A DNA stretch of 64,000 bases from a virus. Shown here one piece after another: positions 50,278 through 58,984 of the stretch. Each line of letters begins with the position of its first letter. Within the stretch, counting starts at the first letter, position 1. The stretch spans positions 80,419 through 144,418 of IMG/VR virus record IMGVR_UViG_3300030107_008258; one strand, written 5' to 3'. The notes beneath the pieces were generated by a model. It saw only the letters and a list, made by a program, of their open reading frames with translations, searched no databases and was not told where the DNA came from. A program made the translations under genes and the position numbers.

Positions 50278-50571
50278 TCAGTCATGCGTAATCCTCAAAT
50301 CATTGTCGGCAATCGAATCCTCGTAAAAGGAAACCTCAACTACTCGGTGAATGTCACCAGCCAGCACCTTGTTTCCGTCAATGTCTTTCTCTAACACCAC
50401 GCTGTTGTGGTACTTGTCAATCATCTCTTGCTCTGTTGTACCAACCGGATAAGTGCAGCTTGACACTCGGTTGACACGGGCCAAGAAGTGGTTGCCGGTA
50501 TAGGTTGGGTTCTTCTCCACCTTAAAGGTGGCGTTTAAGAATGAATGGTAGAATGTTCTCTCGTCTCTCAT
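50278..50571 (-). CDS. Early hypothetical protein (MRDERT...)
   Basis: TTGACA(50605-10)-17-TATTAT then GTTATGAG start. Confidence 0.7.
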   Translation of the reverse strand: MRDERTFYHSFLNATFKVEKNPTYTGNHFLARVNRVSSCTYPVGTTEQEMIDKYHNSVVLEKDIDGNKVLAGDIHRVVEVSFYEDSIADNDLRITHD

Positions 50572-50587
50572 AACTTGGTAAATAATA

Positions 50588-50818
50588 TCAGTTCTTTTCG
50601 CTCTTGTCAAGCCATTCCGTTTCCTCACTCCATTCAATCTCGGTGAGTTTGTTCTGGATGTTGGACAGCTTTTCCTCCATGTCAGAGATGCGTCTCTGGA
50701 GGTACTTGACGTGTTCGTAGTCGTTGCCCCATGACTCGGCGAGAGCTTGGAGGGTTCCACGTACGCTGGCAATCTCTGCCCCTTGTTTGCCTAGATTGGC
50801 TCTTGTTTCATGTCTCAT
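50588..50818 (-). CDS. Early small coiled-coil protein (MRHETR...)
   Basis: TTGACA(50852-57)-17-TACGAT then GTTATGAG. Confidence 0.7.
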   Translation of the reverse strand: MRHETRANLGKQGAEIASVRGTLQALAESWGNDYEHVKYLQRRISDMEEKLSNIQNKLTEIEWSEETEWLDKSEKN

Positions 50819-50861
50819 AACTTGGTAAATCGTATCAGATGAATCGGTGAATGTCAAGTGC

Positions 50862-51023
50862 TTATTCGCACCACTCAACTACTCGGAACCATTCCCCTTG
50901 TACTCGCCTGTTCAATGGCGTGTAGCTCGTCCACTCATCCAAAGGAATCTCCTTGACTGTCTGCACTCCATCAACCCAAGGCCCCTTGACCTTAACCGTC
51001 TTTACTTTCTTCTTATCCCTCAT
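50862..51023 (-). CDS. Early 53-aa protein (MRDKKKVKTV...), absent from the ORF track
   Basis: TTGCAA(51057-62)-17-TAGTAT then GTTATGAG; open to TAA at 50862. Confidence 0.7.
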   Translation of the reverse strand: MRDKKKVKTVKVKGPWVDGVQTVKEIPLDEWTSYTPLNRRVQGEWFRVVEWCE

Positions 51024-51085
51024 AACTGGAAAAATACTATCTTAAATCTCAGATCTTTGCAAGTAAAAAATAAAAAAAAGGTGGC

Positions 51086-51298
51086 CTAGTTGGCCACCAT
51101 GCTTAGGATTCTGTCCCAGCGGAACCGCTTCCACTCTCCGGTTTCGGTACACTTGGCGGTAATGCCAGCGCACTTGTCCTGCTCCGAGTAGTTCGCAAAC
51201 TGCTCCTCAACCTCAACGTTGTAGTTGAATGCCAAGCCCTTGATGTTTTCACGCCCTTGGTGGACGTCCGGTCTGTAGTAAATAAGGAAGTTCCTCAT
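51086..51298 (-). CDS. Small WYL-like domain protein
   Basis: C-terminal A.C..TGEWKRFRWDRILSM resembles the WYL R.FR.DRI motif; own promoter TTGCAA-17-CATACT. Confidence 0.6.
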   Translation of the reverse strand: MRNFLIYYRPDVHQGRENIKGLAFNYNVEVEEQFANYSEQDKCAGITAKCTETGEWKRFRWDRILSMVAN

Positions 51299-51364
51299 AA
51301 CGCAAATAGTATGCCTTAAATCTCAGAAGATTGCAAGCCCTAAATGCAAAAAAAATAAAAAAAA

Positions 51365-51458
51365 TTTTTATAGTGATTCCCTTGTGGTTGGCATAGCCCC
51401 TGCTACCTCCAACTCCAAGCCTTACTACCATTATACCTCAGCCCCGTGCTTGAGTCAA
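51365..51458 (-). ncRNA. Promoter plus putative ~60-nt hairpin sRNA
   Basis: TTGACT(51453-58)-17-TATAAT followed by CTTG/GTTGG/GTAGC...GCTAT/CCAAC/CAAG stem (51381-51419) and a T-rich tract; only an 8-codon ORF downstream of the predicted start. Confidence 0.5.
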
Positions 51459-51507
51459 CTAAAAAAATAACTTTTTTCAAAAAAAAGTTTTTTTAAAAAC
51501 TAATATT

Positions 51508-51586
51508 GTAAGTCGTTGACTATCAAGGACTTACGCCCTCGGCGCCCCCCGCGCAGCGCCTAAGTCGTTGTCAATCAGTGACTTAC
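51508..51586 (+). repeat. Twin-palindrome element, copy 1
   Basis: GTAAGTCGTTGACTATCAAGGACTTAC + 25-bp GC core + CTAAGTCGTTGTCAATCAGTGACTTAC. Confidence 0.95.
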
Positions 51587-51724
51587 GACTTGAAAAATCA
51601 AAAAAAATGCTTTTTTAGGATGGGTTTCCGTGCCAACTCTGCCGAAAAATAAAAATAAAAAAAATGAAAAAAAATGACTTTTATGCTTGCGTTTTTCTGT
51701 GGCTGTGCTATACTGTTTCCAGTT

Positions 51725-51871
51725 ATGAGAGATATGAACAACACAGATAAGGTTGAGCAGGGTTACGAGGAAGTTTGCACCGGATGCGGCGAAACGGTTT
51801 GCTTGTCAAAGGAAGAGCATGGTCAATGGGATCACGGGTTCGATGCGTTTATGTGCTGGGAATGCGAGTAA
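51725..51871 (+). CDS. Early zinc-ribbon microprotein
   Basis: CTGC...CWEC; TTGCGT-16-TATACT + GTTATGAG. Confidence 0.7.
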   Translation: MRDMNNTDKVEQGYEEVCTGCGETVCLSKEEHGQWDHGFDAFMCWECE

Positions 51872-51913
51872 ACGCTTGACTTTCCTTTAAAATCTGATAA
51901 GATAATTCCCGTT

Positions 51914-52147
51914 ATGAGAGATATGAAAACGTACACGTTGTACTGGAAGAATGAGGATACCAACAGGGTGAGCAGCAAAGACTTCACCAATGAATCTGGT
52001 GTTGACCATTCGGCAATGGACAAGGCTTTGGAGTTGGCCCAAGAAGCTGACACCAATATGTGGCCTTGGATACTGGAAGAGGACGGTTGCGAAATCGCCC
52101 ACGGTTGGGGTGGTGATATGTTGGGAGCCTACCGCTTTCAAGGTTAA
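51914..52147 (+). CDS. Early acidic small protein
   Basis: TTGACT-16-TAAGAT + GTTATGAG. Confidence 0.7.
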   Translation: MRDMKTYTLYWKNEDTNRVSSKDFTNESGVDHSAMDKALELAQEADTNMWPWILEEDGCEIAHGWGGDMLGAYRFQG

Positions 52148-52236
52148 AAAAATAATTTTATTGACAAGTGGCTGAATTGGCCTTAGTTTAGAAGAAGAGG
52201 GGGGAAGCAAACCTTCTCCCCATTAACCCAAAATAA

Positions 52237-52806
52237 ATGAAACGGATGAAAAATCCACAAACACAAGATGATTGGGCTGCGACAAGAGCAGCGTTATCCA
52301 TCCTGCCGCAAGAGCAACACGCCGACTACTTGGCGATGCTCAACGACACCAAAACGAGAGCCAAGGGGATTATGGCCAAAGCCGTCACCCTTGAGGTCAA
52401 GCCCGATAAGGCAACCGGCAGCAAGGTTCAGGAAAAGGCCAACAAGGCCAAGTCCTCGACCAAAGCCAAGTCCTCCAGCAAGAGGGCTGCTGTCGTCCAG
52501 AAGAAGGCGAAGGTCAACGGGGCCTTCATTACCTTCCACCAGTACTCAATGCTCCAGACGGTGCGTGAGTTAGTGGCCAACGGCGTTAACGGTGCAGAGG
52601 GGCTATCCTCAAGCGAGATCGCCGAATACCGCGACTGCGGCGAGACGGGGAGCGAGGTCTCCACCGTCCTTGACCGCCTCAAGGCCTACCGCATCATCGA
52701 TTGGCGGCTAGTCGAGGTGAGCAAGAAGCCGGACGAAAGCCAAACTTGGCCAAGCCGGAACTTCCCTAGTTCCACCAAGCGGCGGGAATTCACCCTATTG
52801 GGCTGA
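52237..52806 (+). CDS. Winged-helix DNA-binding protein with Lys/Ala/Ser-rich linker
   Basis: ITFHQYSMLQTV...LSSSEIAE....GSEVSTVLDRLKAYRIIDW MarR/LexA-like wHTH; terminator hairpin 52815-52838. Confidence 0.6.
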   Translation: MKRMKNPQTQDDWAATRAALSILPQEQHADYLAMLNDTKTRAKGIMAKAVTLEVKPDKATGSKVQEKANKAKSSTKAKSSSKRAAVVQKKAKVNGAFITFHQYSMLQTVRELVANGVNGAEGLSSSEIAEYRDCGETGSEVSTVLDRLKAYRIIDWRLVEVSKKPDESQTWPSRNFPSSTKRREFTLLG

Positions 52807-52848
52807 TCACTATACCCCTCCCCCTTTGGGGGGAGGGATTTTGATATC

Positions 52849-53385
52849 ATGGAAATTTATAGCTTCGACGAAGTAGAGGAAGGCCAGAATGCTGTCAAGA
52901 CGGCTATGGCTGAAGCCGGTTGCTTTGGGCCGGAAATGGAGAAACATTGTGCAGGTCAATCGCCAGAGAAGGATTTAATATCCTCGTTTATTCGATGGCG
53001 TAAAAAAATAACAACCATGCGAATGACGGTAACGGTCACGCAGGGACTAGGCAAGTACTTGGCTAACCTACTGAACAATGGGGATACTACCGGCATCCCG
53101 CCCAAGACTAAACCAAACATCAAGAAGGTGAATAAACCAGCTAATTGGCTGCGCCAGATGGAAGTTGAAGGCCTGTACAAACAATTCGGCGCGGATGACG
53201 TTGATGAAGTCATTGAACGCGTATTCAAGGCCTGTAAGGGCGGCGAGGTGGTCGATATCTCGGACGATGGTGAAAACATCGTCGAAACGGATCTCGACGG
53301 CTTAGACGTCAATCTAGACGTATTGGCGAGAAGCGAACAAATCCAAGCGTTCAATGTTCACTTTACCCCCAAGAAAAAAAGTTGA
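52849..53385 (+). CDS. Hypothetical protein
   Basis: 178-aa ORF filling the gap to the next promoter. Confidence 0.55.
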   Translation: MEIYSFDEVEEGQNAVKTAMAEAGCFGPEMEKHCAGQSPEKDLISSFIRWRKKITTMRMTVTVTQGLGKYLANLLNNGDTTGIPPKTKPNIKKVNKPANWLRQMEVEGLYKQFGADDVDEVIERVFKACKGGEVVDISDDGENIVETDLDGLDVNLDVLARSEQIQAFNVHFTPKKKS

Positions 53386-53432
53386 AAATAGTTGTTGACT
53401 TTTCCTGAAATTCTGATATACTAGTTTCCGTT

Positions 53433-53615
53433 ATGAGAGATACGTTTGATAACTTAAGTTGTGAAGAGGTTTTTGAGTTGAACGCGGTTTGTGACCAGTG
53501 GCAGCAAGAGGCCATCAAGGCTCAAGAGGCTGAGCTTGCCGAGCGCAAGCGCAAGGCCGCTGCTGAAATGTTCTGGTTTATCCAAAAACGCCGCCAGCAA
53601 GGGGATTGGTTCTAA
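53433..53615 (+). CDS. Early small protein, CEE-FE family
   Basis: TTGACT-16-TATACT + GTTATGAG; LSCEEVFELNA. Confidence 0.75.
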   Translation: MRDTFDNLSCEEVFELNAVCDQWQQEAIKAQEAELAERKRKAAAEMFWFIQKRRQQGDWF

Positions 53616-53631
53616 TAAAAAAAACCAAGTC

Positions 53632-53710
53632 GTAAGTCGTTGAACATCAATGACTTAGGCGCCCGGCGCCCCGCGCCGAAATCGTAAGTGCTTGATAATC
53701 AGTAACTTAC
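53632..53710 (+). repeat. Twin-palindrome element, copy 2
   Basis: Palindromes at 53632 and 53684. Confidence 0.95.
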
Positions 53711-53858
53711 GCATCCGTTTTTTAAAAAAAGTGATGTTTTAGGATAGGTTTCCGTGCCAACCTGTGCAAATTATTAAAAAAACTTTCTTGAATAAAAATA
53801 AAAAAAATGACTTTTTAGGGTTGACTTTTTCAGAGTTTATGCTATACTGTTTTCCGTT

Positions 53859-53981
53859 ATGAGGGATAAGATAGAAATGGAAGAGGTGTTCACCGAAAAT
53901 TGGGAACAGTTAATCGATGAGATCATGGGCGACATGGACATGGTCTGGAATGAAGAAGCTAAAAAATTCGAAATAAACTGA
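53859..53981 (+). CDS. Early acidic 40-aa protein (MRDKIEMEEVF...), absent from the ORF track
   Basis: TTGACT(53821)-16-TATACT + GTTATGAG. Confidence 0.7.
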   Translation: MRDKIEMEEVFTENWEQLIDEIMGDMDMVWNEEAKKFEIN

Positions 53982-54145
53982 TGACAGACATAGAAAAAAA
54001 GATCCACAAGTTAAATGTGGATATCGTGCTGAACGGCCCGATCACCTGCCTTGACCCGATCAAGGATCATCGCCTGAAGGTTGCCAAGTTCAACATCGCC
54101 AAGCGGGAATTACTCGCAAAAGAATTTCAAAAAAGTGAGATTTAA
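53981..54145 (+). CDS. 54-aa protein (MTDIEKKIHK...), absent from the ORF track
   Basis: TGATG stop/start overlap with the preceding gene. Confidence 0.6.
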   Translation: MTDIEKKIHKLNVDIVLNGPITCLDPIKDHRLKVAKFNIAKRELLAKEFQKSEI

Positions 54146-54187
54146 GGGTTGACCTTGAGCGTAAAGTGTGATTTAATAAACGGAGTT

Positions 54188-54358
54188 ATGAGGGAAACCT
54201 TAAAAGAAAACAAAAAGTTGGTCTGCCAAGAGTGTGGTAGAGAGGACGGAGCCAAGAGCGATTGGGAAGGCTTCATCAGCGTATCGGAGTGGGGCAATGA
54301 GCATGACTTCGGAACGATCTGCGACGAGTGCCAAGAGGATCAAATTGATAGCCTTTAA
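54188..54358 (+). CDS. Early zinc-ribbon microprotein
   Basis: CQEC...CDEC; TTGACC-17-TTTAAT + GTTATGAG. Confidence 0.7.
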   Translation: MRETLKENKKLVCQECGREDGAKSDWEGFISVSEWGNEHDFGTICDECQEDQIDSL

Positions 54359-54403
54359 AAAGGGCTTGACTTTTTCAAAAAATCTGATAGAATAATTTTT
54401 GTT

Positions 54404-54706
54404 ATGAGAGAAACATATAAACACCCCGAAACCGGAGCCGCCATCTACTACGCCCCATGCGTAGACCACGAAGATGATGTTAGTAAAATCTGGCACGACT
54501 TTCGCGATTGCGAAACCAAAACTTATGCAAACCTGAGCATGGATTGGTCGCCTTACAGAGACCCATCAAAGAACGACATCAAGATGTGGTTCGCTCTTGG
54601 TTGCCCTGACCGCCGCACCATAGGAGACGGCAAAACGGTTGGCTCGCTCGATTCTGACAGACTCGTCGAGGCTCTTGGTAAACAACTTTGTATCGGAGGA
54701 TTCTAA
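54404..54706 (+). CDS. Early hypothetical protein
   Basis: TTGACT-16-TAGAAT + GTTATGAG. Confidence 0.7.
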   Translation: MRETYKHPETGAAIYYAPCVDHEDDVSKIWHDFRDCETKTYANLSMDWSPYRDPSKNDIKMWFALGCPDRRTIGDGKTVGSLDSDRLVEALGKQLCIGGF

Positions 54707-54707
54707 T

Positions 54708-55163
54708 ATGAGAAAAATAATAATAACTTTCGCCGCTGCTGCTACTGCTTTAAGCCTTTATGCAAACACACACAAAAATCACACGCTTTCAAGGGAAACC
54801 AAGGTCATCGCAATTACTATACTGGCGGAAGCCAGAGGGGAAGGACACGCAGGAATGTACGCGGTGGGTGCTGTCATTGCTCAACGAGCATTTGAAAGAA
54901 AACAAACGCCCACAGAGGTATGCCTTAAAAAATGGCAATTTAGTTGTTGGAACGGAAAAAAACTCAAAGACCTTGAGCATTTGCTCAAGGGATCGCAAGC
55001 CAAATACGCAATAACAGTTGCGAAAAATGTGAAAACATTAAGCCGCGAATATGTTGGCTATGCTAACCACTACCACGCGACTTGGATGAAGAAAAAGCCT
55101 TACTGGGCAAAAGGTCAAAAGCCTGTTAAGACAATCGGGCAACACGTTTTTTATAAACTTTAA
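54708..55163 (+). CDS. SleB/Hydrolase_2-family cell wall hydrolase with signal peptide
   Basis: ILAEARGEG..GMYAV..VI..R, QFSCWN, ANHYHA, IGQHVFY; GGAGG SD before ATG 54708. Confidence 0.88.
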   Translation: MRKIIITFAAAATALSLYANTHKNHTLSRETKVIAITILAEARGEGHAGMYAVGAVIAQRAFERKQTPTEVCLKKWQFSCWNGKKLKDLEHLLKGSQAKYAITVAKNVKTLSREYVGYANHYHATWMKKKPYWAKGQKPVKTIGQHVFYKL

Positions 55164-55183
55164 TCTTTCATCCTCATAACACA

Positions 55184-55227
55184 GCCCCGTCGAGTTCTCT
55201 CTCTGCTCGGCGGGGCATTTTTCTTTT
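55184..55227 (+). terminator. Terminator after the hydrolase gene
   Basis: GCCCCGTCGAG-11 nt-CTCGGCGGGGC + T tract. Confidence 0.75.
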
Positions 55228-55272
55228 TGTCAAGTGAAAAAGATAAAAAAAAGTTTTTTAAAAAATAAAGTC

Positions 55273-55351
55273 GTAAGTGACTGATATTCAATGACTTACG
55301 GCAGCGGCGCCCTGCGCCCAAATCGTAAGTAACTGATATTCAATGACTTAT
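55273..55351 (+). repeat. Twin-palindrome element, copy 3
   Basis: Palindromes at 55273 and 55325. Confidence 0.95.
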
Positions 55352-55488
55352 GAACTCGTTTTTCTAAAAACTAAGACTTTTAAAAGGGATTCCATGCCAA
55401 GTAGTGTAAAAAATAAAAATAAAAAAAATAAAAAAGTGAGTTTTTTCTGTTGACTTTTCCCGGAAAGTGTGGTTTAATAATTTCTGTT

Positions 55489-55758
55489 ATGAGGGATATG
55501 TTTGATAATATGTACGAGGTTCGGATCGCCAACTCTGGCGATGTTGCTGGTTTCCCGCGTTCTCACGATGGTCTTGAAAAGGCCATCATGTTGGCCTCGC
55601 GTGAGGGTACTGAGGTCACCTTTGATGGTGATGTCGTCTGGCCGGAGGAGGAGCCGGATATGGATGAGTCCATGGACGGGGATCATGAGTCCGCCTTGGC
55701 CAGTGCCGGTTTCGGCACGGATGAGGATTACGGCTGCTACGGTGGCGATGAGTGGTAA
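55489..55758 (+). CDS. Early very acidic protein (SMDGDHESALASAGFGTDEDYG)
   Basis: TTGACT-17-TTTAAT + GTTATGAG. Confidence 0.75.
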   Translation: MRDMFDNMYEVRIANSGDVAGFPRSHDGLEKAIMLASREGTEVTFDGDVVWPEEEPDMDESMDGDHESALASAGFGTDEDYGCYGGDEW

Positions 55759-55814
55759 AAAACTCATTTTTTTTGTTGACTTTTAAATCTGATTGTTTTA
55801 TACTGTTTTTTGTT

Positions 55815-56009
55815 ATGGGAATTATGAAATCACTATTCATGGAACTCTCCTGCGAGGAGGAGTTTGAACTCAACGCGTGGTGCGACGAACGCCGTGAGGC
55901 CGACATCGCCGCGCAGGATCGCGACATGGTCGACGAGGAAATGGCCCGTCAGTCCGACGCGCAACTCGCCGAGGACGCCGCGTTGGATCTGTTGATCGCC
56001 GCCGGTTAA
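55815..56009 (+). CDS. Early small protein, CEE-FE family
   Basis: TTGACT-17-TATACT + GTTATG; LSCEEEFELNA. Confidence 0.75.
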   Translation: MGIMKSLFMELSCEEEFELNAWCDERREADIAAQDRDMVDEEMARQSDAQLAEDAALDLLIAAG

Positions 56010-56079
56010 TCACGAACCGTGCCAACCAACCCCGCCAAGGCGGGGTTTTTTTGTTTTTAGTTTTTTAAAAAGTGAAGTC

Positions 56080-56158
56080 GTAAGTCGTTGGGTAGCAATG
56101 ACTTAAGGGCCGGGCGGGGGGCGCCGACCCCTTAACTTGTTGATTATCAATGACTTAG
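56080..56158 (-). repeat. Twin-palindrome element, copy 4 (core inverted)
   Basis: Palindromes at 56080 and 56132. Confidence 0.95.
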
Positions 56159-56234
56159 GAATACAAAAAATAATTTAAAAAAGTGAGATTTAAAGGTTGA
56201 CATTTTCTGATTCTGTGGTATGCTCATTTCTGTT

Positions 56235-56402
56235 ATGAGAGATAATGTTACTTGTGAAGAGGTGTTCGAGATGGAGTCCGACGCATGGGTCGCTGATGTG
56301 ACCGTCGCCAACGGTTTCGACGATGTCGAGGTCGAGGAGGTCGAGGAGGTTTGCTGGTGCAAGTTTTTCGAGTCGTGCCCTGAATGTTTTGGCAAAAAAT
56401 AA
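56235..56402 (+). CDS. Early small protein, CEE-FE family, with C-terminal CxC/CxxC
   Basis: TTGACA-16-TATGCT + GTTATGAG; VTCEEVFEM. Confidence 0.7.
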   Translation: MRDNVTCEEVFEMESDAWVADVTVANGFDDVEVEEVEEVCWCKFFESCPECFGKK

Positions 56403-56406
56403 AAAC

Positions 56407-56485
56407 GTAAGTCTTTGCGCTGCAGTGACTTAGGGCTCGGGCAGGGGGCGCCGCGTGCGTAAGTGACTGGTAATCAAAGGGTTAC
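56407..56485 (-). repeat. Twin-palindrome element, copy 5 (core inverted)
   Basis: Palindromes at 56407 and 56459. Confidence 0.92.
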
Positions 56486-56656
56486 GCGCATAAAATCTGA
56501 AATTGGAGTAACGTAAGTTTTTCTTTTTCGGCAAGTCTCACATTGCCCCTTCTTCCAAGAGCCGCACCTATCAGTTATTTGAGGCTGACGGTTTTCCTTT
56601 TTAGCTGCTCTTATTTCACGGTTCTGCGCTTTGATTCCGCAAGCATAACAAATCAT
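56474..56656 (-). CDS. Small basic zinc-finger protein
   Basis: CYAC...CETC. Confidence 0.55.
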   Translation of the reverse strand: MICYACGIKAQNREIRAAKKENRQPQITDRCGSWKKGQCETCRKRKTYVTPISDFMRVTL

Positions 56657-56703
56657 TATTTATTAAAATCTTATTTCTTATTTGATTAATTCCAAATCCG
56701 AAT

Positions 56704-56919
56704 CTAGGAGAGTATTTGTCGAATTTGACCTCTGTATTTATTTATCTCCGAAGCTGTCTCGCTATGGGAAGCGATGTTTCGTAAAGTCTCACGCGTTACG
56801 CTTTCGATCCGCCTTCTTAAAGTCTCTTTGACGGACTCCAAACTTTTAGCATCTTTTATTTTGATGCTGCGAGTTTTCTTTTTCTTCTCTGCCTTTTTCT
56901 TTAAATGTTTAGTTTTCAT
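56704..56919 (-). CDS. Small basic protein
   Basis: 71-aa Lys/Arg-rich ORF directly downstream of the large ncRNA. Confidence 0.5.
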   Translation of the reverse strand: MKTKHLKKKAEKKKKTRSIKIKDAKSLESVKETLRRRIESVTRETLRNIASHSETASEINKYRGQIRQILS

Positions 56920-56932
56920 TATTTTAAATTAA

Positions 56933-57730
56933 AAAATGGTGGTTGGATTAATTGTTTACCAACACCTTTTCAGTACCCAGAAAACAATGTTTCTATCTAC
57001 TTACTTCGGACTCCCCCACGGTTTTCCTCTGCCACTAGGCCGCTGTACTTCCCGCAGTTGCTGCGTTATCCCTTTGGGAGGGATTATTCCGCCACACCGA
57101 TCTCTCTCCGTCGAGAGAGAAAATTGATAGGTTGCTGCCGCACCACCAGCAGTAAAACGGGCGCGAGATCATCAAAACACAGAAAAACTCGCAGGGGTAT
57201 TTAACTCCGTCAACCTAAAAGAATCATTTTAAACGGATCACCCACACATTACAAACTATTAACGTCTTGTTGATCTTTTTCGTAAACAATGGTTAGGAGG
57301 CTTCTACTCCCAAGACTGATTTAATAATGCCCTGCTAGATTACTCTAACAAATCTAAAACAATTCAAATTGATCGCTTTTGAGAAACTTCTCATTCTTAA
57401 CCGTTTCAAGTCGAGTTAACGACTGTCATGCTTTCAACGCGTTTATAGCTCAGAAAGACGTGATTAAGTGCATGGCCCAAGTTTTTTGGTGTTATGAGAG
57501 AGAGTCCCTTTGCGGGACAGTCTTTAGACCGCAAAACTCAAAAGCAAATTTTCAAAGAGCATGGTCGCTTTTTACAGGTGCTACCTTAACTAGGGGGCTA
57601 CCCTAGACGCGACCAAAATTGTCAGGGGTTAACTAGCATTGTATTCCTACCCTAGTCTTTTAAGTCTGCCCTGCCAGACTACCTTACCCAAACACATGAA
57701 CGTATAACTTACAAACATTCCCCGAAGGGA
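56933..57730 (-). ncRNA. Large (~800 nt) structured non-coding RNA candidate
   Basis: Promoter TTGCAT(57760-65)-17-TATACT; no minus-strand ORF of 60 aa or more; many hairpins; ends in a T-run. Confidence 0.7.
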
Positions 57731-57742
57731 AAAACCAGTATA

Positions 57743-58006
57743 TCAGCAACGGTCTGGCAATGCAACCTTTTTCTCAACTTTTTTTTGCTGATCTTCAATC
57801 AACTCTCCATCCTCCAAACAAGCATCCCAAGTCTTTTCCCAATCAAAAGAAAAATACTCATCAAATACCTTTGAAGCTATCCGACCCTCCATGCTTTGAG
57901 TCGCTGCTTCTTTCAGCATCGATCTCATAACTTTGAGTCTTTTCCGCATTTCTTCAGTTCCCGCTTTTGTTCGCGGCCTCAACCAATGGTCATCCATTTC
58001 TTTCAT
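57743..58006 (-). CDS. Hypothetical protein
   Basis: 87-aa ORF coupled to 58008-58652. Confidence 0.6.
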   Translation of the reverse strand: MKEMDDHWLRPRTKAGTEEMRKRLKVMRSMLKEAATQSMEGRIASKVFDEYFSFDWEKTWDACLEDGELIEDQQKKVEKKVALPDRC

Positions 58007-58007
58007 A

Positions 58008-58652
58008 CTATAATACCTTTCGGTTTTTTTTATCTTTTAACTTAAATCCCATTTCTTTGAAGGTGTACTTCTTTCCTTTATTCCAAGGCACTCTCTTTGG
58101 CTTTGGCTCTGGAATGTAAAAAATGTTATAGTGCGGCCCTAGTGCTGTCCTATCCCGAAGGACAACCCGCTCCGACTTATAGACCGGCTTCTTGGTTATA
58201 TCCTCCACAAAAGTCTTATACTTATAAGGGTTATAAGTTGCACCCTTAAACTCATCACCTGACTCTGGGATGCATTTGTCGCACCACTCAAACTCTCCAT
58301 CTCCGCAGTCGCAGATGTTATACTTCTCTACCTTACCACGAACTAGACGATGCCGCTCCTTTTGAACGTCTCCGATGTTGTGGCACTTGCCTACGACATA
58401 AGCGTGAACATTCTTCCGCTTATCCCGAAGTACTCGCTGCCGCCCTGCCTCTTGAACGCGAAACTTTGCATCGTACAACTCAACACGGTGAGCATGGCAA
58501 TAAAGTAGACCCGTCTCCGCATCTATGACTGACAAGCAATCAAGATTTAGATTGTAGTAAACTTTCACACGATCCGGTGCAACCTCGATGCCGTCCATCA
58601 TTTTACGCGGCCCTGCCTTCTCCCAGCTAATGAATCCTTTTGGTTCCCTCAT
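58008..58652 (-). CDS. Conserved phage protein (VY.NL...AGRQRVLR.KRKNVHA.V.G...YNPYK family)
   Basis: Recognisable motif set; own promoter TTGACA-17-TATACT + GTTATGAG. Confidence 0.75.
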   Translation of the reverse strand: MREPKGFISWEKAGPRKMMDGIEVAPDRVKVYYNLNLDCLSVIDAETGLLYCHAHRVELYDAKFRVQEAGRQRVLRDKRKNVHAYVVGKCHNIGDVQKERHRLVRGKVEKYNICDCGDGEFEWCDKCIPESGDEFKGATYNPYKYKTFVEDITKKPVYKSERVVLRDRTALGPHYNIFYIPEPKPKRVPWNKGKKYTFKEMGFKLKDKKNRKVL

Positions 58653-58716
58653 AACTTCAAACAGTATAATCTAGTCGGTCTCTAATGTCAACAGTAAAAA
58701 ACATTTTTTTTTAAAT

Positions 58717-58790
58717 TGGACGCGAGGGAGGGAGTCGAACCCTCAATTGTTCTTTTGCAGAGAACCGTCTTGCCGTTTGACCACCCCGCG
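58717..58790 (-). tRNA. tRNA-Cys(GCA)
   Basis: CGCGGGG/CCTCGCG acceptor, GTC/GAC D stem, GTTCT-CTGCAAA-AGAAC anticodon arm, GAGGG-TTCGACT-CCCTC T arm, U73, encoded CCA. Confidence 0.93.
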
Positions 58791-58883
58791 ATTGTAGGAG
58801 CCTTTGCCCTTCTTCGGACGATGCACCCGCTCGCCAGTGTTCCACCTGACTACTGCGCGGGGCTTTTTAGACTTCTCATTCAC
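58743..58883 (-). CDS. ArfA-like 46-aa protein overlapping the tRNA-Cys
   Basis: RVHRPKKGKGSYNR matches the ArfA KKGKGSY.R motif; promoter TTGACA(58916-21)-16-TATTAT with GTT-GTG start at the standard 7-nt distance. Confidence 0.75.
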   Translation of the reverse strand: MNEKSKKPRAVVRWNTGERVHRPKKGKGSYNRGVVKRQDGSLQKNN

Positions 58884-58984
58884 AACGGGGTTAATAATAT
58901 CATATTTTACACATATGTCAATAGTAAAAAACATTTTTTTAGGGGTTGACAAGTACCCCCATTTACCCTATACTCATCTTGGTT

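What the first reader, a model, noticed from the sequence alone, without database searches (positions are those of the whole stretch)
56933..57765. ~800-nt promoter-driven structured RNA near the tRNA
SEEN: promoter TTGCAT-17-TATACT on the minus strand is followed not by GTTATG but by a TTCCC-TTCG-GGGAA hairpin. The next ~800 nt have no credible ORF and many stems: AGTCTG/CAGACT, GGTCGC...GCGACC enclosing CTAGGG/CCCTAG, GTCCC-GCAAA-GGGAC, TGTTAGA-GTAA-TCTAGCA, TCTCTCTC-GACG-GAGAGAGA, ATCCCT-CCCAA-AGGGAT, ATTGTTT...AAACAAT. It ends CCAACCACCA-TTTTTT. KNOWN: GOLLD and ROOL are very large ornate RNAs of phages, often near tRNAs. INFERENCE: this is a GOLLD/ROOL-class or new large RNA, or a polycistron of smaller RNAs. 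It also carries one anti-start box, a possible clue to function.
Basis: partly seen in the sequence, partly recalled or inferred. Interest (0 to 1): 0.75.

Follow-up and report, generated by a model that had tools for sequence, protein, structure and literature searches.

The report
Modular manA-type phage leader RNA
The gene-free ~800 bases are a real, promoter-driven chain of separately folding RNA modules in a marine phage, ending in a divergent copy of the known 'manA' RNA (recently reported to build RNA-only cages in vitro) that runs straight into a tiny basic-protein gene; it is not one giant GOLLD/ROOL-like RNA.

Summary
On the minus strand of 56927-57765, an early-type promoter is followed by about 800 nt with no credible ORF and many real stems.

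It is not a GOLLD/ROOL homologue and not one conserved large RNA. Only the 3' ~190 nt (57118-56932) is constant. It gives a full-length but sub-threshold match to Rfam manA (49.7 bits against a cut-off of 55.2, E about 1e-11).

Related copies occur in at least 120 marine metagenome contigs. 77 unique copies give strong covariation: 99% of cells paired and 16 pairs with compensatory changes.

Upstream lie exchangeable modules:
- a 5' UUCG hairpin;
- a new ~70-nt H-type pseudoknot ("block A"), whose pseudoknot covaries in five ways;
- a small three-way junction;
- hairpins carrying the "anti-start" box;
- a strain-specific 149-nt insert.

In the shortest relatives the promoter feeds block A, or the junction, directly into the manA-like module.

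The module ends in an A-tract, an extended hairpin and a U-tract. The start codon of an orphan basic helical protein ("d1") follows 11-17 nt later in about 65 of 75 loci.

Most likely this is an attenuator-type unit: the main product is a stable structured RNA, and read-through supplies the only mRNA for d1.

This scan found the same kind of unit before in another genome (e1-5733779).

The parts
57737..57765 (-). Early-type promoter: TTGCAT (57765-57760), 17-nt spacer, TATACT (57742-57737). It overlaps the last codons and the stop of the upstream 87-aa ORF. Inferred transcription start is about 57729.
   Evidence: sequence. One search shows the same -10 context and the same 7-nt distance to the first transcribed base as at the GTTATGAG early genes. 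Searches show that relatives with a different upstream gene carry TTGACA-17-TAnnnT at the same place.
57718..57732 (-). 5'-terminal hairpin with a UUCG tetraloop; probably a stabilising 5' cap structure (inferred).
   Evidence: It is identical in L007, and other relatives have a different hairpin at the same place.
57611..57684 (-). Block A, a ~70-nt H-type pseudoknot module:
- P1: 57679-57675 with 57668-57664.
- P1 loop CAGGG (57673-57669) pairs with CCCUG (57627-57623).
- P2: 57657-57652 with 57636-57631.
- P2a: GUA-GGAA-UAC (57650-57641).
- U-rich tail.
   Evidence: In 52 unique copies, 99% of cells are paired and 9 of 19 pairs show compensatory changes. The pseudoknot helix is 100% paired, with 3 of 5 pairs compensatory. 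Slid controls give at most 2 pairs. There is no Rfam match.
57563..57614 (-). Small three-way junction: P1 GGUCGC/GCGACC, P2 CUAGGG/CCCUAG, P3 AGGU-AGC-ACCU, with an A-rich joining strand.
   Evidence: -22 kcal/mol, z = -3.26. One search gives 8 unique copies with compensatory changes in P1 and P3. In L179, L112, L062 and L172 it replaces block A as the first module after the promoter.
57504..57560 (-). Optional hairpin modules: the CUCUUUGA box region, hairpin CGGUC-UAAA-GACUG, and hairpin GUCCC-GCAAA-GGGAC (57518-57504).
   Evidence: L007 keeps both hairpins through G-C to A-U/G-U changes. (shared by 6-16 of 94 leaders).
57489..57503 (-). 'Anti-start' box UCUCUCUCAUAACAC. It is single-stranded and follows a hairpin. 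It is complementary to the GUUAUGAGRGA 5' ends of the early mRNAs.
   Evidence: It is present in 18 of 98 unique leaders, at two different positions. The variant CUCACAAC in L004 is not matched by GTTGTGAG starts.
57375..57440 (-). Optional module E, a set of hairpins shared with L007/L008 and L004.
   Evidence: about 12 of 94 leaders.
57223..57372 (-). Strain-specific 149-nt insert. It holds the TGTTAGA/TCTAGCA hairpin, a terminator-like hairpin (57313-57293) and a promoter-like TTGTAA-17-TAAAAT (57254-57226).
   Evidence: only one other leader, L160, has it. (RNA-library contigs of relatives join 57222 directly to 57372)..
57135..57222 (-). Module F (57222-57185) and hairpin G, CUGCUG-GUGGUG-CGGCAG (57152-57135). 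Hairpin G resembles the canonical manA P5/L5 hairpin (cag-GUGGUG-cug) but lies 5' of P1.
   Evidence: compensatory changes in L004 and L006. (many stem variants, all paired). (50-79 of 94 leaders).
56932..57118 (-). manA-like module, the invariant core:
- P1: 57118-57101.
- GGUG (57098-57095), the 5' pseudoknot strand.
- GAAUAA loop and P3.
- A reduced central domain.
- Penultimate hairpin with AUUGUUU (56988-56982).
- Last hairpin with loop AAACAAU (56957-56951).
- Tail CCACCA (56942-56937).
   Evidence: RF01745, 49.7 bits, E 1.6e-11, model positions 1-192. (77 unique copies, 99.2% paired, 16 compensatory pairs, 0 of 500 shuffles). (loop-loop covariation).
56931..56970 (-). Terminator-like 3' end: A-tract, GGUG+UUGG, a 12-nt loop, CCAA+C+CACC, then A and U6. 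It competes with the long-range pseudoknot for CACC.
   Evidence: -9.5 kcal/mol here and -12.7 in L007, against -3.6 for canonical P-SSM2 manA. (A-tract, both GGUG and CCACCA are invariant). The scanner did not call it because the loop exceeds 8 nt.
56704..56919 (-). d1, a 71-aa basic helical-hairpin protein (KTKHLKKKAEKKK...IRQILS). It is the first ORF after the RNA, with no promoter or Shine-Dalgarno sequence of its own.
   Evidence: start 11-17 nt after CCACCA in about 65 of 75 loci. (AF2 pLDDT 86, two helices). (no family; only 19 representative clusters in 1.84 billion proteins).

Best explanation
The region is one early transcription unit of a marine phage whose main product is a modular structured RNA.

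Transcript layout:
- A sigma-70-type early promoter starts transcription at about 57729, directly at a stable UUCG hairpin.
- The transcript then strings together independently folding modules: the block A pseudoknot, the three-way junction, and optional hairpins. These are cassettes that differ between related phages.
- It always ends with a divergent manA-family domain.

The manA-like domain folds into the family's core: P1, the GAAUAA/P3 element, a 5'-3' pseudoknot (GGUG:CACC), and complementary loops on its last two hairpins. In solved manA RNAs those loops mediate pairing between molecules, so this domain probably self-associates as well (inferred).

In this clade the last hairpin is lengthened by a local GGUG and flanked by an A-tract and a U-tract. 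That gives a moderate intrinsic terminator, which competes with the pseudoknot for the same CACC.

I therefore read the unit as an attenuator:
- Most transcripts stop at the U-tract and yield a stable RNA of about 0.8 kb (0.3-0.8 kb in relatives).
- Transcripts in which the pseudoknotted fold wins read through. They are the only mRNA for the small basic protein d1, whose start codon lies 17 nt further on.

Shown: the modules, their structures, the promoter-like sites, the manA relationship and the linkage to d1. Inferred: the transcription start, termination and read-through, self-association, and any role of d1 as a partner of the RNA.
For: Identity of the 3' module:
- It gives a full-length RF01745 match with E 1.6e-11. 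All close relatives match at 38-46 bits.
- Shared signature elements and pseudoknot complementarity change in step between subfamilies: GGGAG:CUCCC in P-SSM2, GGAUG:CAUCC in S-CREM1, GGUG:CACC here.
- The L8/L9 loop complementarity also covaries: CUGUA:UACAG, UGUCA:UGACA, AUUUGU:ACAAAU, and AUUGUUU:AAACAAU in the window.

Structure: searches give strong covariation for the manA-like core and for block A.

One transcript:
- In L159 and L163, TTGACA-17-TATACT plus 7 nt leads straight into block A, which abuts the manA-like P1.
- In L179-type loci the same promoter leads into the three-way junction.
- 91 of 98 unique leaders carry a promoter-like site upstream.

Terminator:
- The A-tract, both GGUG strands and CCACCA are invariant, and a U-tract follows.
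- The hairpin is worth -9.5 to -12.7 kcal/mol, against -3.6 in a canonical manA.
- The U-tract stays with the RNA even where a further module separates it from d1.

Linkage to d1:
- The d1 family is the first ORF in essentially all loci, starting 11-17 nt after CCACCA in about 65 of 75.
- d1 has no GTTATGAG-type promoter-start of its own, unlike the other early genes.

Other members of the family:
- Canonical manA lies 16 nt before the purL start in P-SSM2.
- It is followed by a terminator-like hairpin in P-HM1.
- It sits flush between two tRNAs in S-CREM1.

Self-assembly of manA RNAs through kissing loops L5-L7' and L8-L9' is reported in preprint 10.64898/2026.07.01.735769.

Presence in RNA libraries: contigs from four metatranscriptome runs (3 studies) lie within 57051-57489, one of them identical to the window at depth 28.
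Against: - The Rfam score is below the family's gathering cut-off in every copy, and the central P5-P7 domain of manA is not matched.
- Nothing here shows where the RNA begins or ends. The RNA-library data are contigs, which may contain DNA and cannot show ends or strand.
- The terminator-like hairpin has a 12-nt loop and a bulge, and it failed the scanner's criteria. All three strands of the proposed switch are invariant, so covariation cannot tell the pseudoknot from the terminator.
- The -35 box of the window's promoter is weak. Read-through from the strong promoter at 58691-58663 is possible.
- No ligand or signal is known for any manA RNA.
- Self-assembly was shown only in vitro, at high RNA concentration and 10 mM Mg, and for other family members.
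Confidence: 0.55

Rival explanations
1. Pure cis-regulator. The manA-like domain, perhaps with block A, is a riboswitch-like sensor in a long 5' UTR. Its only job is to set translation or transcription of d1 in response to a ligand, and the RNA has no function of its own.
For: - Weinberg et al. 2010 (PMC2864571) rated manA as certainly cis-regulatory and probably a riboswitch.
- manA lies 16 nt before the purL start in P-SSM2, and 11-17 nt before d1 here.
- Loops and junctions are highly conserved.
- A competing pseudoknot and terminator is the classical layout of an expression platform.
Against: - The RNA (88% mean identity) is far more conserved than the protein it would regulate (30-45% identity between subfamilies).
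- In S-CREM1 the manA RNA sits flush between two tRNAs, and in P-HM1 it is followed by a terminator, so it is not a leader there.
- In the papers searched here, no ligand for manA is reported since its description in 2010.
- The solved manA RNAs are multimers.
- The exchangeable 5' modules are hard to explain as parts of a sensor.
Confidence: 0.2
2. Stand-alone, trans-acting or self-assembling RNA. The unit is an RNA gene. The manA domain multimerises into rings or cages, and the 5' modules are appendages displayed many times over. Those with the anti-start box would pair with the GUUAUGAGRGA 5' ends of the phage's leaderless early mRNAs. d1 is a basic partner protein, or merely the next gene.
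For: - manA cages have been observed in vitro.
- Loop-loop complementarity of the L8/L9 type is conserved and covaries.
- The core is invariant and the 5' cassettes are exchangeable.
- The 3' end is terminator-like.
- The anti-start box recurs in 18 of 98 leaders at two different positions, always single-stranded after a hairpin. Its U lies opposite the R of the targets.
- Two further boxes in the window lie just upstream of terminators.
- d1 has a lysine-rich N-terminal segment.
Against: - d1 has no promoter of its own, so complete termination would silence a gene that is always kept.
- The box is absent from about 80% of leaders, and its L004 variant mismatches the AUG without matching target changes.
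- There is no in vivo evidence of multimers for any manA RNA.
- The loop-loop pairing could be within one molecule.
Confidence: 0.2
3. One giant ornate RNA of the GOLLD/ROOL class, or a new one, in which the whole ~800 nt folds as a single conserved architecture.
For: - Its size, its position in a phage genome and a tRNA within 1 kb.
- The whole-length fold z = -2.05.
- manA shares cage formation in vitro with ROOL and GOLLD.
Against: - There is no Rfam match to GOLLD or ROOL.
- Only the 3' quarter is universal.
- Relatives have leaders from about 290 nt upwards, with modules swapped, missing or inserted.
- A 149-nt stretch is found in only this strain and one other leader (L160).
Confidence: 0.03
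4. Not an RNA element: a cluster of unannotated small genes, an antisense gene, or a DNA-level site such as an origin or packaging site.
For: - The antisense frame over the manA-like core is open in 58 of 77 copies.
- Plus-strand ORFs of 99 and 75 aa exist.
Against: - Substitutions are compensatory in helices, including two pseudoknots.
- Variable sites show no codon periodicity.
- 19 of 77 copies break the antisense frame.
- The region is single-copy in the 144-kb genome, with no iterons.
Confidence: 0.02

Closest known systems
manA RNA motif (Rfam RF01745; Weinberg et al. 2010, PMC2864571; cryo-EM preprint Ren et al. 2026, 10.64898/2026.07.01.735769)
   Same: - P1 hairpin with a GACG-type loop.
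- GAAUAA internal loop with the P3 hairpin and UAA.
- 5'-3' pseudoknot.
- UCCGAA(G)U core segment.
- Complementary loops on the last two hairpins (L8/L9).
- Marine phage setting.
- Position a few nucleotides before a start codon, as in P-SSM2.
   Different: - It scores below the Rfam cut-off (38-50 bits against 55.2).
- The central three-hairpin domain (P5-P7) is reduced to one hairpin.
- A GUGGUG-loop hairpin like canonical P5 lies outside the core, 5' of P1.
- The last hairpin is lengthened into a terminator-like stem with A- and U-tracts.
- It is always preceded by extra modules and followed by the d1 gene.
- The phage is not a T4-like cyanophage. One binned Enterobacterales MAG contig hints at a gammaproteobacterial host.
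GOLLD and ROOL large phage/bacterial RNAs
   Same: It is long, ornate, phage-borne and non-coding. Members of the manA family, like ROOL and GOLLD, form RNA-only multimers in vitro.
   Different: There is no sequence or structure match. It is not a single conserved fold, and its modules are exchangeable. A protein gene follows without a gap.
Early leader RNAs of lambdoid phages (nutL upstream of the small basic N protein; HK022 put RNA). This comparison is drawn from general knowledge and was not tested here.
   Same: An early promoter, then structured RNA elements, then a small basic protein as the first gene. An RNA structure close to the transcription start could act on the transcribing polymerase.
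   Different: No boxA/boxB or put-like sequence was found. d1 has no detectable relation to N. Antitermination is only an analogy.

Membership tests
manA RNA (RF01745) | Covariance-model score at or above Rfam's gathering cut-off (55.2 bits) | tested here: not met
   The window scores 49.7 bits and seven relatives score 38.1-46.3 bits. The E-values are nevertheless 1e-11 to 3e-6, and the match covers model positions 1-192.
manA RNA (RF01745) | P1 hairpin, GAAUAA internal loop with P3 hairpin, and the conserved UCCGAA core segment | tested here: met
   cmscan alignment. Helices 1, 3 and 4 are 98.5-100% paired with compensatory changes in 77 unique copies. Direct comparison with P-SSM2, P-HM1 and S-CREM1.
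manA RNA (RF01745) | Long-range pseudoknot between the strand after P1 and the 3' tail | tested here: inconclusive
   GGUG (57098-57095) is complementary to CACC (56941-56938). Both are invariant within the clade, so there is no covariation there. Across subfamilies the pair changes in step: GGGAG:CUCCC, GGAUG:CAUCC, GGUG:CACC. A local GGUG competes for the same strand.
manA RNA (RF01745) | Complementary loops of the last two hairpins (L8/L9; an intermolecular kissing loop in the solved manA_A0F1) | tested here: met
   5-8 contiguous pairs in all 25 loop combinations, with compensatory variants. The canonical members have CUGUA:UACAG and UGUCA:UGACA. Whether the pairing is within or between molecules cannot be told from sequence.
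manA RNA (RF01745) | Central multi-hairpin domain (P4 enclosing P5, P6, P7) | tested here: not met
   This part of the model aligns poorly, with many non-pairs and low posterior probability. Covariation supports one enclosing helix with a single inner hairpin instead (helices 5 and 7).
manA RNA (RF01745) | Homo-oligomerisation into pentamer-based rings or cages | not testable with these tools
   Reported in vitro for other members. This needs SEC or cryo-EM of this RNA.
GOLLD / ROOL | Match to the family covariance model and a conserved large architecture | tested here: not met
   No match at the gathering threshold or at E <= 10. Only the 3' ~190-235 nt is conserved among 94 leaders.
Riboswitch / transcription attenuator | A sensor fold that shares a strand with an intrinsic terminator upstream of the regulated ORF | tested here: inconclusive
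   Competing pairings exist, and the hairpin plus U-tract are conserved. The loop is 12 nt, the scanner did not call it, and no ligand or end-mapping data exist.

The most novel reading that the evidence does not exclude
The unit encodes a natural RNA scaffold with cargo. The manA-like domain assembles many copies into a ring or cage. The exchangeable 5' modules are displayed on it many times over. These are the block A pseudoknot, the three-way junction and, in a fifth of the phages, an anti-start seed complementary to the 5' ends of the phage's own leaderless early mRNAs. The co-encoded basic protein d1 binds or neutralises the particle. Such an assembly could sequester early mRNAs or a host factor and so time the shut-off of early expression.
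Probability: 0.1. Interest if true: 0.85.

Novelty: new variant of a known kind. Interest (0 to 1): 0.45.

Why it matters
manA is an orphan RNA. It was described in 2010 as a riboswitch candidate with no known ligand. In 2026 it was reported to form RNA-only cages in vitro, with no known biological role.

This clade places a divergent manA domain in a well-defined natural context that recurs in at least 120 marine contigs:
- it has its own early promoter;
- it carries exchangeable 5' RNA cassettes, two of which (the block A pseudoknot and the small three-way junction) are in no RNA family library;
- it has a built-in terminator-like end;
- it is always linked to one orphan basic protein.

That context yields concrete tests of what manA RNAs do in cells: cis-attenuator, self-assembling particle, or both. 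It also shows that Rfam's current model misses a widespread subfamily.

Tried and rejected
- Close relatives among cultured phages: blastn of the region and tblastn of a 505-aa structural protein against 50,697 phage records found nothing. TerL finds only distant (<30%) matches to Firmicutes phages. No cultured relative or host is known.
- Rfam matches other than manA (scaRNA, snoRNA, CRISPR repeat, histone stem-loop) have E of 0.8-10 and are chance.
- d1 has no Pfam or PHROG family. Its AF2 model is a two-helix hairpin without a meaningful PDB match (best E 2.7, 14-3-3 fragments). A profile search finds only its own small family.
- Anti-start box as the core function: rejected. It is present in 18 of 98 leaders, and the L004/X17 variant CUCACAAC is not mirrored by GTTGTGAG starts. 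An opposite-strand gene start was also rejected: those ORFs are only 4-5 codons (31 in the window), and there is no promoter.
- Block A outside this context: two IMG/VR pattern scans found it only in the same phage group. L183, L184, L057 and L058 are chance or partial matches.
- Other copies in the 144-kb genome: none.
- RNA-library contigs gave no cover over the flanking genes or over most of the manA-like part. Because these are contigs found with this stretch, that absence is not evidence of anything.
- blastn with the S-CREM1 manA found only itself. One literature search was spoiled by word-start matching of 'mana'.
- Hairpin-G loop pairing with the 3' tail: a correlation exists, but it rests on few lineages, so it is kept as a hint only.
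Full report
**What is in the window.** On the minus strand, TTGCAT (57765-57760), a 17-nt spacer and TATACT (57742-57737) overlap the end of an 87-aa ORF.
- They are followed by a UUCG-capped hairpin, not by the GTTATGAG start typical of this phage's early genes. That motif occurs 21 times in the window against 1.85 expected, all but one in the last 14 kb.
- From there to the ATG at 56919 there is no credible ORF.
- The window is the end of a 144-kb IMG/VR virus record. It has large structural genes, a TerL and a block of tiny early genes.
- tRNA-Cys lies about 950 nt upstream.
- The window's stretch is held nearly whole in marine metagenome runs from at least two studies beyond the possible source samples.

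**Known families.**
- At gathering thresholds Rfam 15 finds only the tRNA.
- With permissive filters the single significant match is manA (RF01745) at 57118-56932. It scores 49.7 bits against a cut-off of 55.2, with E about 1e-11, and covers model positions 1-192.
- The ends of the model align well and the central domain aligns poorly.
- There is no GOLLD, ROOL, tmRNA, RNase P or intron match.

**Relatives.**
- The neighbouring L5-gp82-like protein retrieved seven related IMG/VR loci. All carry the same sub-threshold manA match downstream.
- 77 unique copies of the core are 88% identical on average.
- On the RNAalifold consensus, 99.2% of 4376 cells pair. 16 of 57 pairs show compensatory changes (202 cells). 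No shuffle out of 500 reaches the observed values, and slid controls give at most 4 such pairs.
- Variable sites show no codon periodicity.

**Relation to canonical manA.** I compared the module with P-SSM2, P-HM1 and S-CREM1.
- Shared features are P1, the GAAUAA/P3 element, the UCCGAA segment and the last hairpin.
- The 5'-3' pseudoknot changes in step between subfamilies: GGGAG:CUCCC, GGAUG:CAUCC, and GGUG:CACC here.
- The loops of the last two hairpins are complementary in every case: CUGUA:UACAG and UGUCA:UGACA in the canonical members, AUUUGU:ACAAAU in most of this clade, AUUGUUU:AAACAAU in the window and AAUUGUUU:AAACAAUU in L073/L105.
- A July 2026 preprint (10.64898/2026.07.01.735769) reports that manA RNAs form pentamer-based decamers and a 60-subunit cage in vitro, through intermolecular kissing loops named L5-L7' and L8-L9'. 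The covarying loop pair found here fits L8/L9.
- The canonical central P5-P7 domain is replaced by one hairpin.
- A hairpin with the canonical L5 loop sequence GUGGUG lies outside the core, 5' of P1 (57152-57135). It is itself supported by compensatory changes.
- I therefore file the module as a divergent structural variant of manA, not as a member by Rfam's own threshold.

**The rest of the 800 nt.** Alignment of the whole leaders and a coverage count over 94 unique leaders show a mosaic.
- *Block A* (57684-57611) is present in about 55 leaders and in no other context. In 52 unique copies its two helices, a GGAA-capped extension and a pseudoknot between the P1 loop and the 3' tail are 99% paired. 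The pseudoknot covaries in five ways: CAGGG:CCCUG, CUGGG:CCCAG, CGGGG:CCCCG, CGAGG:CCUCG and UAGGG:CCCUA. It has no Rfam match.
- *The three-way junction* (57614-57563) folds at -22 kcal/mol with z = -3.26. It occurs in eight unique forms with compensatory changes.
- *The hairpins around the anti-start box and module E* are shared by 6-16 leaders.
- *57372-57223* is found only in this strain and one near-identical contig. RNA-library contigs of relatives join its two flanks directly.
- *The minimal forms* are decisive for the architecture. In L159 and L163, TTGACA-17-TATACT plus 7 nt leads into block A, which abuts P1 of the manA-like module. In L179-type loci the same promoter leads into the three-way junction instead. 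The 7-nt distance equals that between the -10 box and GTTATG at the early genes. The transcript therefore probably starts at the first module (inferred).

**The 3' end and d1.**
- In this clade the last hairpin is preceded by an invariant GAAAAGGUG and followed by an invariant CCACCA and a U-tract.
- The local GGUG extends the hairpin to eight pairs with one bulge. It is worth -9.5 kcal/mol here and -12.7 in L007, against -3.6 for P-SSM2.
- This stem competes with the long-range pseudoknot for CACC.
- The start codon of a small basic protein follows 11-17 nt later in about 65 of 75 evaluable loci.
- In the few exceptions a further stem-closed module of 130-165 nt, or a small zinc-ribbon ORF, is inserted, and d1 still follows.
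- d1 has no promoter-start cassette of its own.
- d1 is an orphan: it has no Pfam or PHROG family, and only 19 representative clusters match in 1.84 billion proteins. It is predicted to be a two-helix hairpin.
- d1 subfamilies share only 30-45% identity, while the RNA stays near 88%.

**Expression.** Contigs from four metatranscriptome runs (three studies) lie within 57051-57489. One is identical to the window at depth 28. Two are relatives' versions that lack the 149-nt insert. This shows presence in RNA libraries, not transcript ends or strand.

**Interpretation.** The data fit one early transcription unit whose main product is a modular structured RNA ending in a manA-type domain.
- A built-in, probably leaky, terminator competes with the domain's pseudoknot.
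- Read-through gives the only mRNA for d1.
- A pure riboswitch leader, and a purely stand-alone self-assembling RNA, remain live alternatives.
- Canonical family members occur both just before a start codon (P-SSM2) and as free-standing or tRNA-flanked RNAs (P-HM1, S-CREM1).
- A single GOLLD/ROOL-like giant RNA, hidden coding and a DNA-level site are contradicted by the comparative data.

**The anti-start box.**
- CUCAUAACAC at 57498-57489 is complementary to the GUUAUGAGRGA 5' ends of the early mRNAs, with U opposite the R.
- It recurs in 18 of 98 unique leaders at two different positions. It always follows a hairpin and has no opposite-strand gene.
- That argues for selection. However, it is absent from most leaders, and the CUCACAAC variant is not matched by altered starts.
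- It is an optional cassette, not the purpose of the RNA.

**Earlier notes of this scan.** A follow-up on another genome (e1-5733779) described the same kind of unit: a pseudoknot, a three-way junction, a divergent manA and a tiny basic-protein gene. My independent analysis agrees. Other notes led me to the 2026 preprint, which I read myself.

Noticed in passing
window 50567-63774, both strands: Early genes share a fixed cassette: TTGACw, 17 nt, TAtAcT, 7 nt, then GTTATGAGRGA. GTTATGAG occurs 21 times against 1.85 expected. This implies near-leaderless mRNAs that all begin Met-Arg-(Asp/Glu/Gly). The motif is confined to the last ~14 kb of the 144-kb record.
   Followed up: partly
window 55173-55182 (+) and 62957-62966 (-): Two further exact CUCAUAACAC anti-start boxes lie in the transcribed sense just upstream of terminator hairpins of protein genes. 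This is the layout of 3'-UTR-derived base-pairing small RNAs.
   Followed up: partly
L110, L156, L097, L124, L147, L065 (about 10 nt 5' of block A): In these related leaders the anti-start box sits immediately upstream of block A, after a hairpin (GCGCUAGCAAUUAGCGC type). In the window it lies 120 nt downstream of block A.
   Followed up: yes
L091, L096, L122, L140 and L145, L173 (between the manA-like module and d1): Additional 130-165-nt modules closed by a long stem are inserted after the U-tract. The two types share an inner segment (A-tract, CGUGGCUC..GUC, ..UAGUG). d1 still follows.
   Followed up: partly
window 57146-57141 versus 56946-56938: The hairpin-G loop GUGGYG could pair with RCCAC of the 3' tail. 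Y=U goes with R=A in 8 of 9 unique leaders. Y=C or U goes with R=G in the rest, and four GCGGCG loops do not fit.
   Followed up: partly
L059 (Synechococcus phage S-CREM1, OP535465 10132-10501): A canonical manA RNA (100 bits) lies flush between tRNA-Leu and tRNA-Asn in a tRNA array that also holds wcaG and abiF RNAs. tRNA processing would therefore release it as a discrete RNA.
   Followed up: partly
window 56474-56656 (-): The second ORF after the RNA is a 60-aa protein with CxxC...C...CxxC (zinc-ribbon-like). It is 75% identical in L007. A different zinc-ribbon ORF is inserted before d1 in L004, L071 and L093.
   Followed up: no
window 57226-57313 (-): Inside the strain-specific insert, a terminator-like hairpin (57313-57293) is followed by a promoter-like TTGTAA-17-TAAAAT (57254-57226). 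It looks like a small terminator-promoter cassette dropped into the leader.
   Followed up: no
L180 (CAZSAT010000152.1, 2081-2503): The only hit in 185,579 species genomes is a 15.8-kb contig binned in an uncultured Enterobacterales MAG, with block A and the manA-like module. This is a weak hint that the host is a marine gammaproteobacterium.
   Followed up: no
window 56905-57204 (+): The antisense frame over the manA-like core has no stop in 58 of 77 unique copies. There is no periodicity of substitutions and no start context, so it is probably a by-product of base composition.
   Followed up: partly
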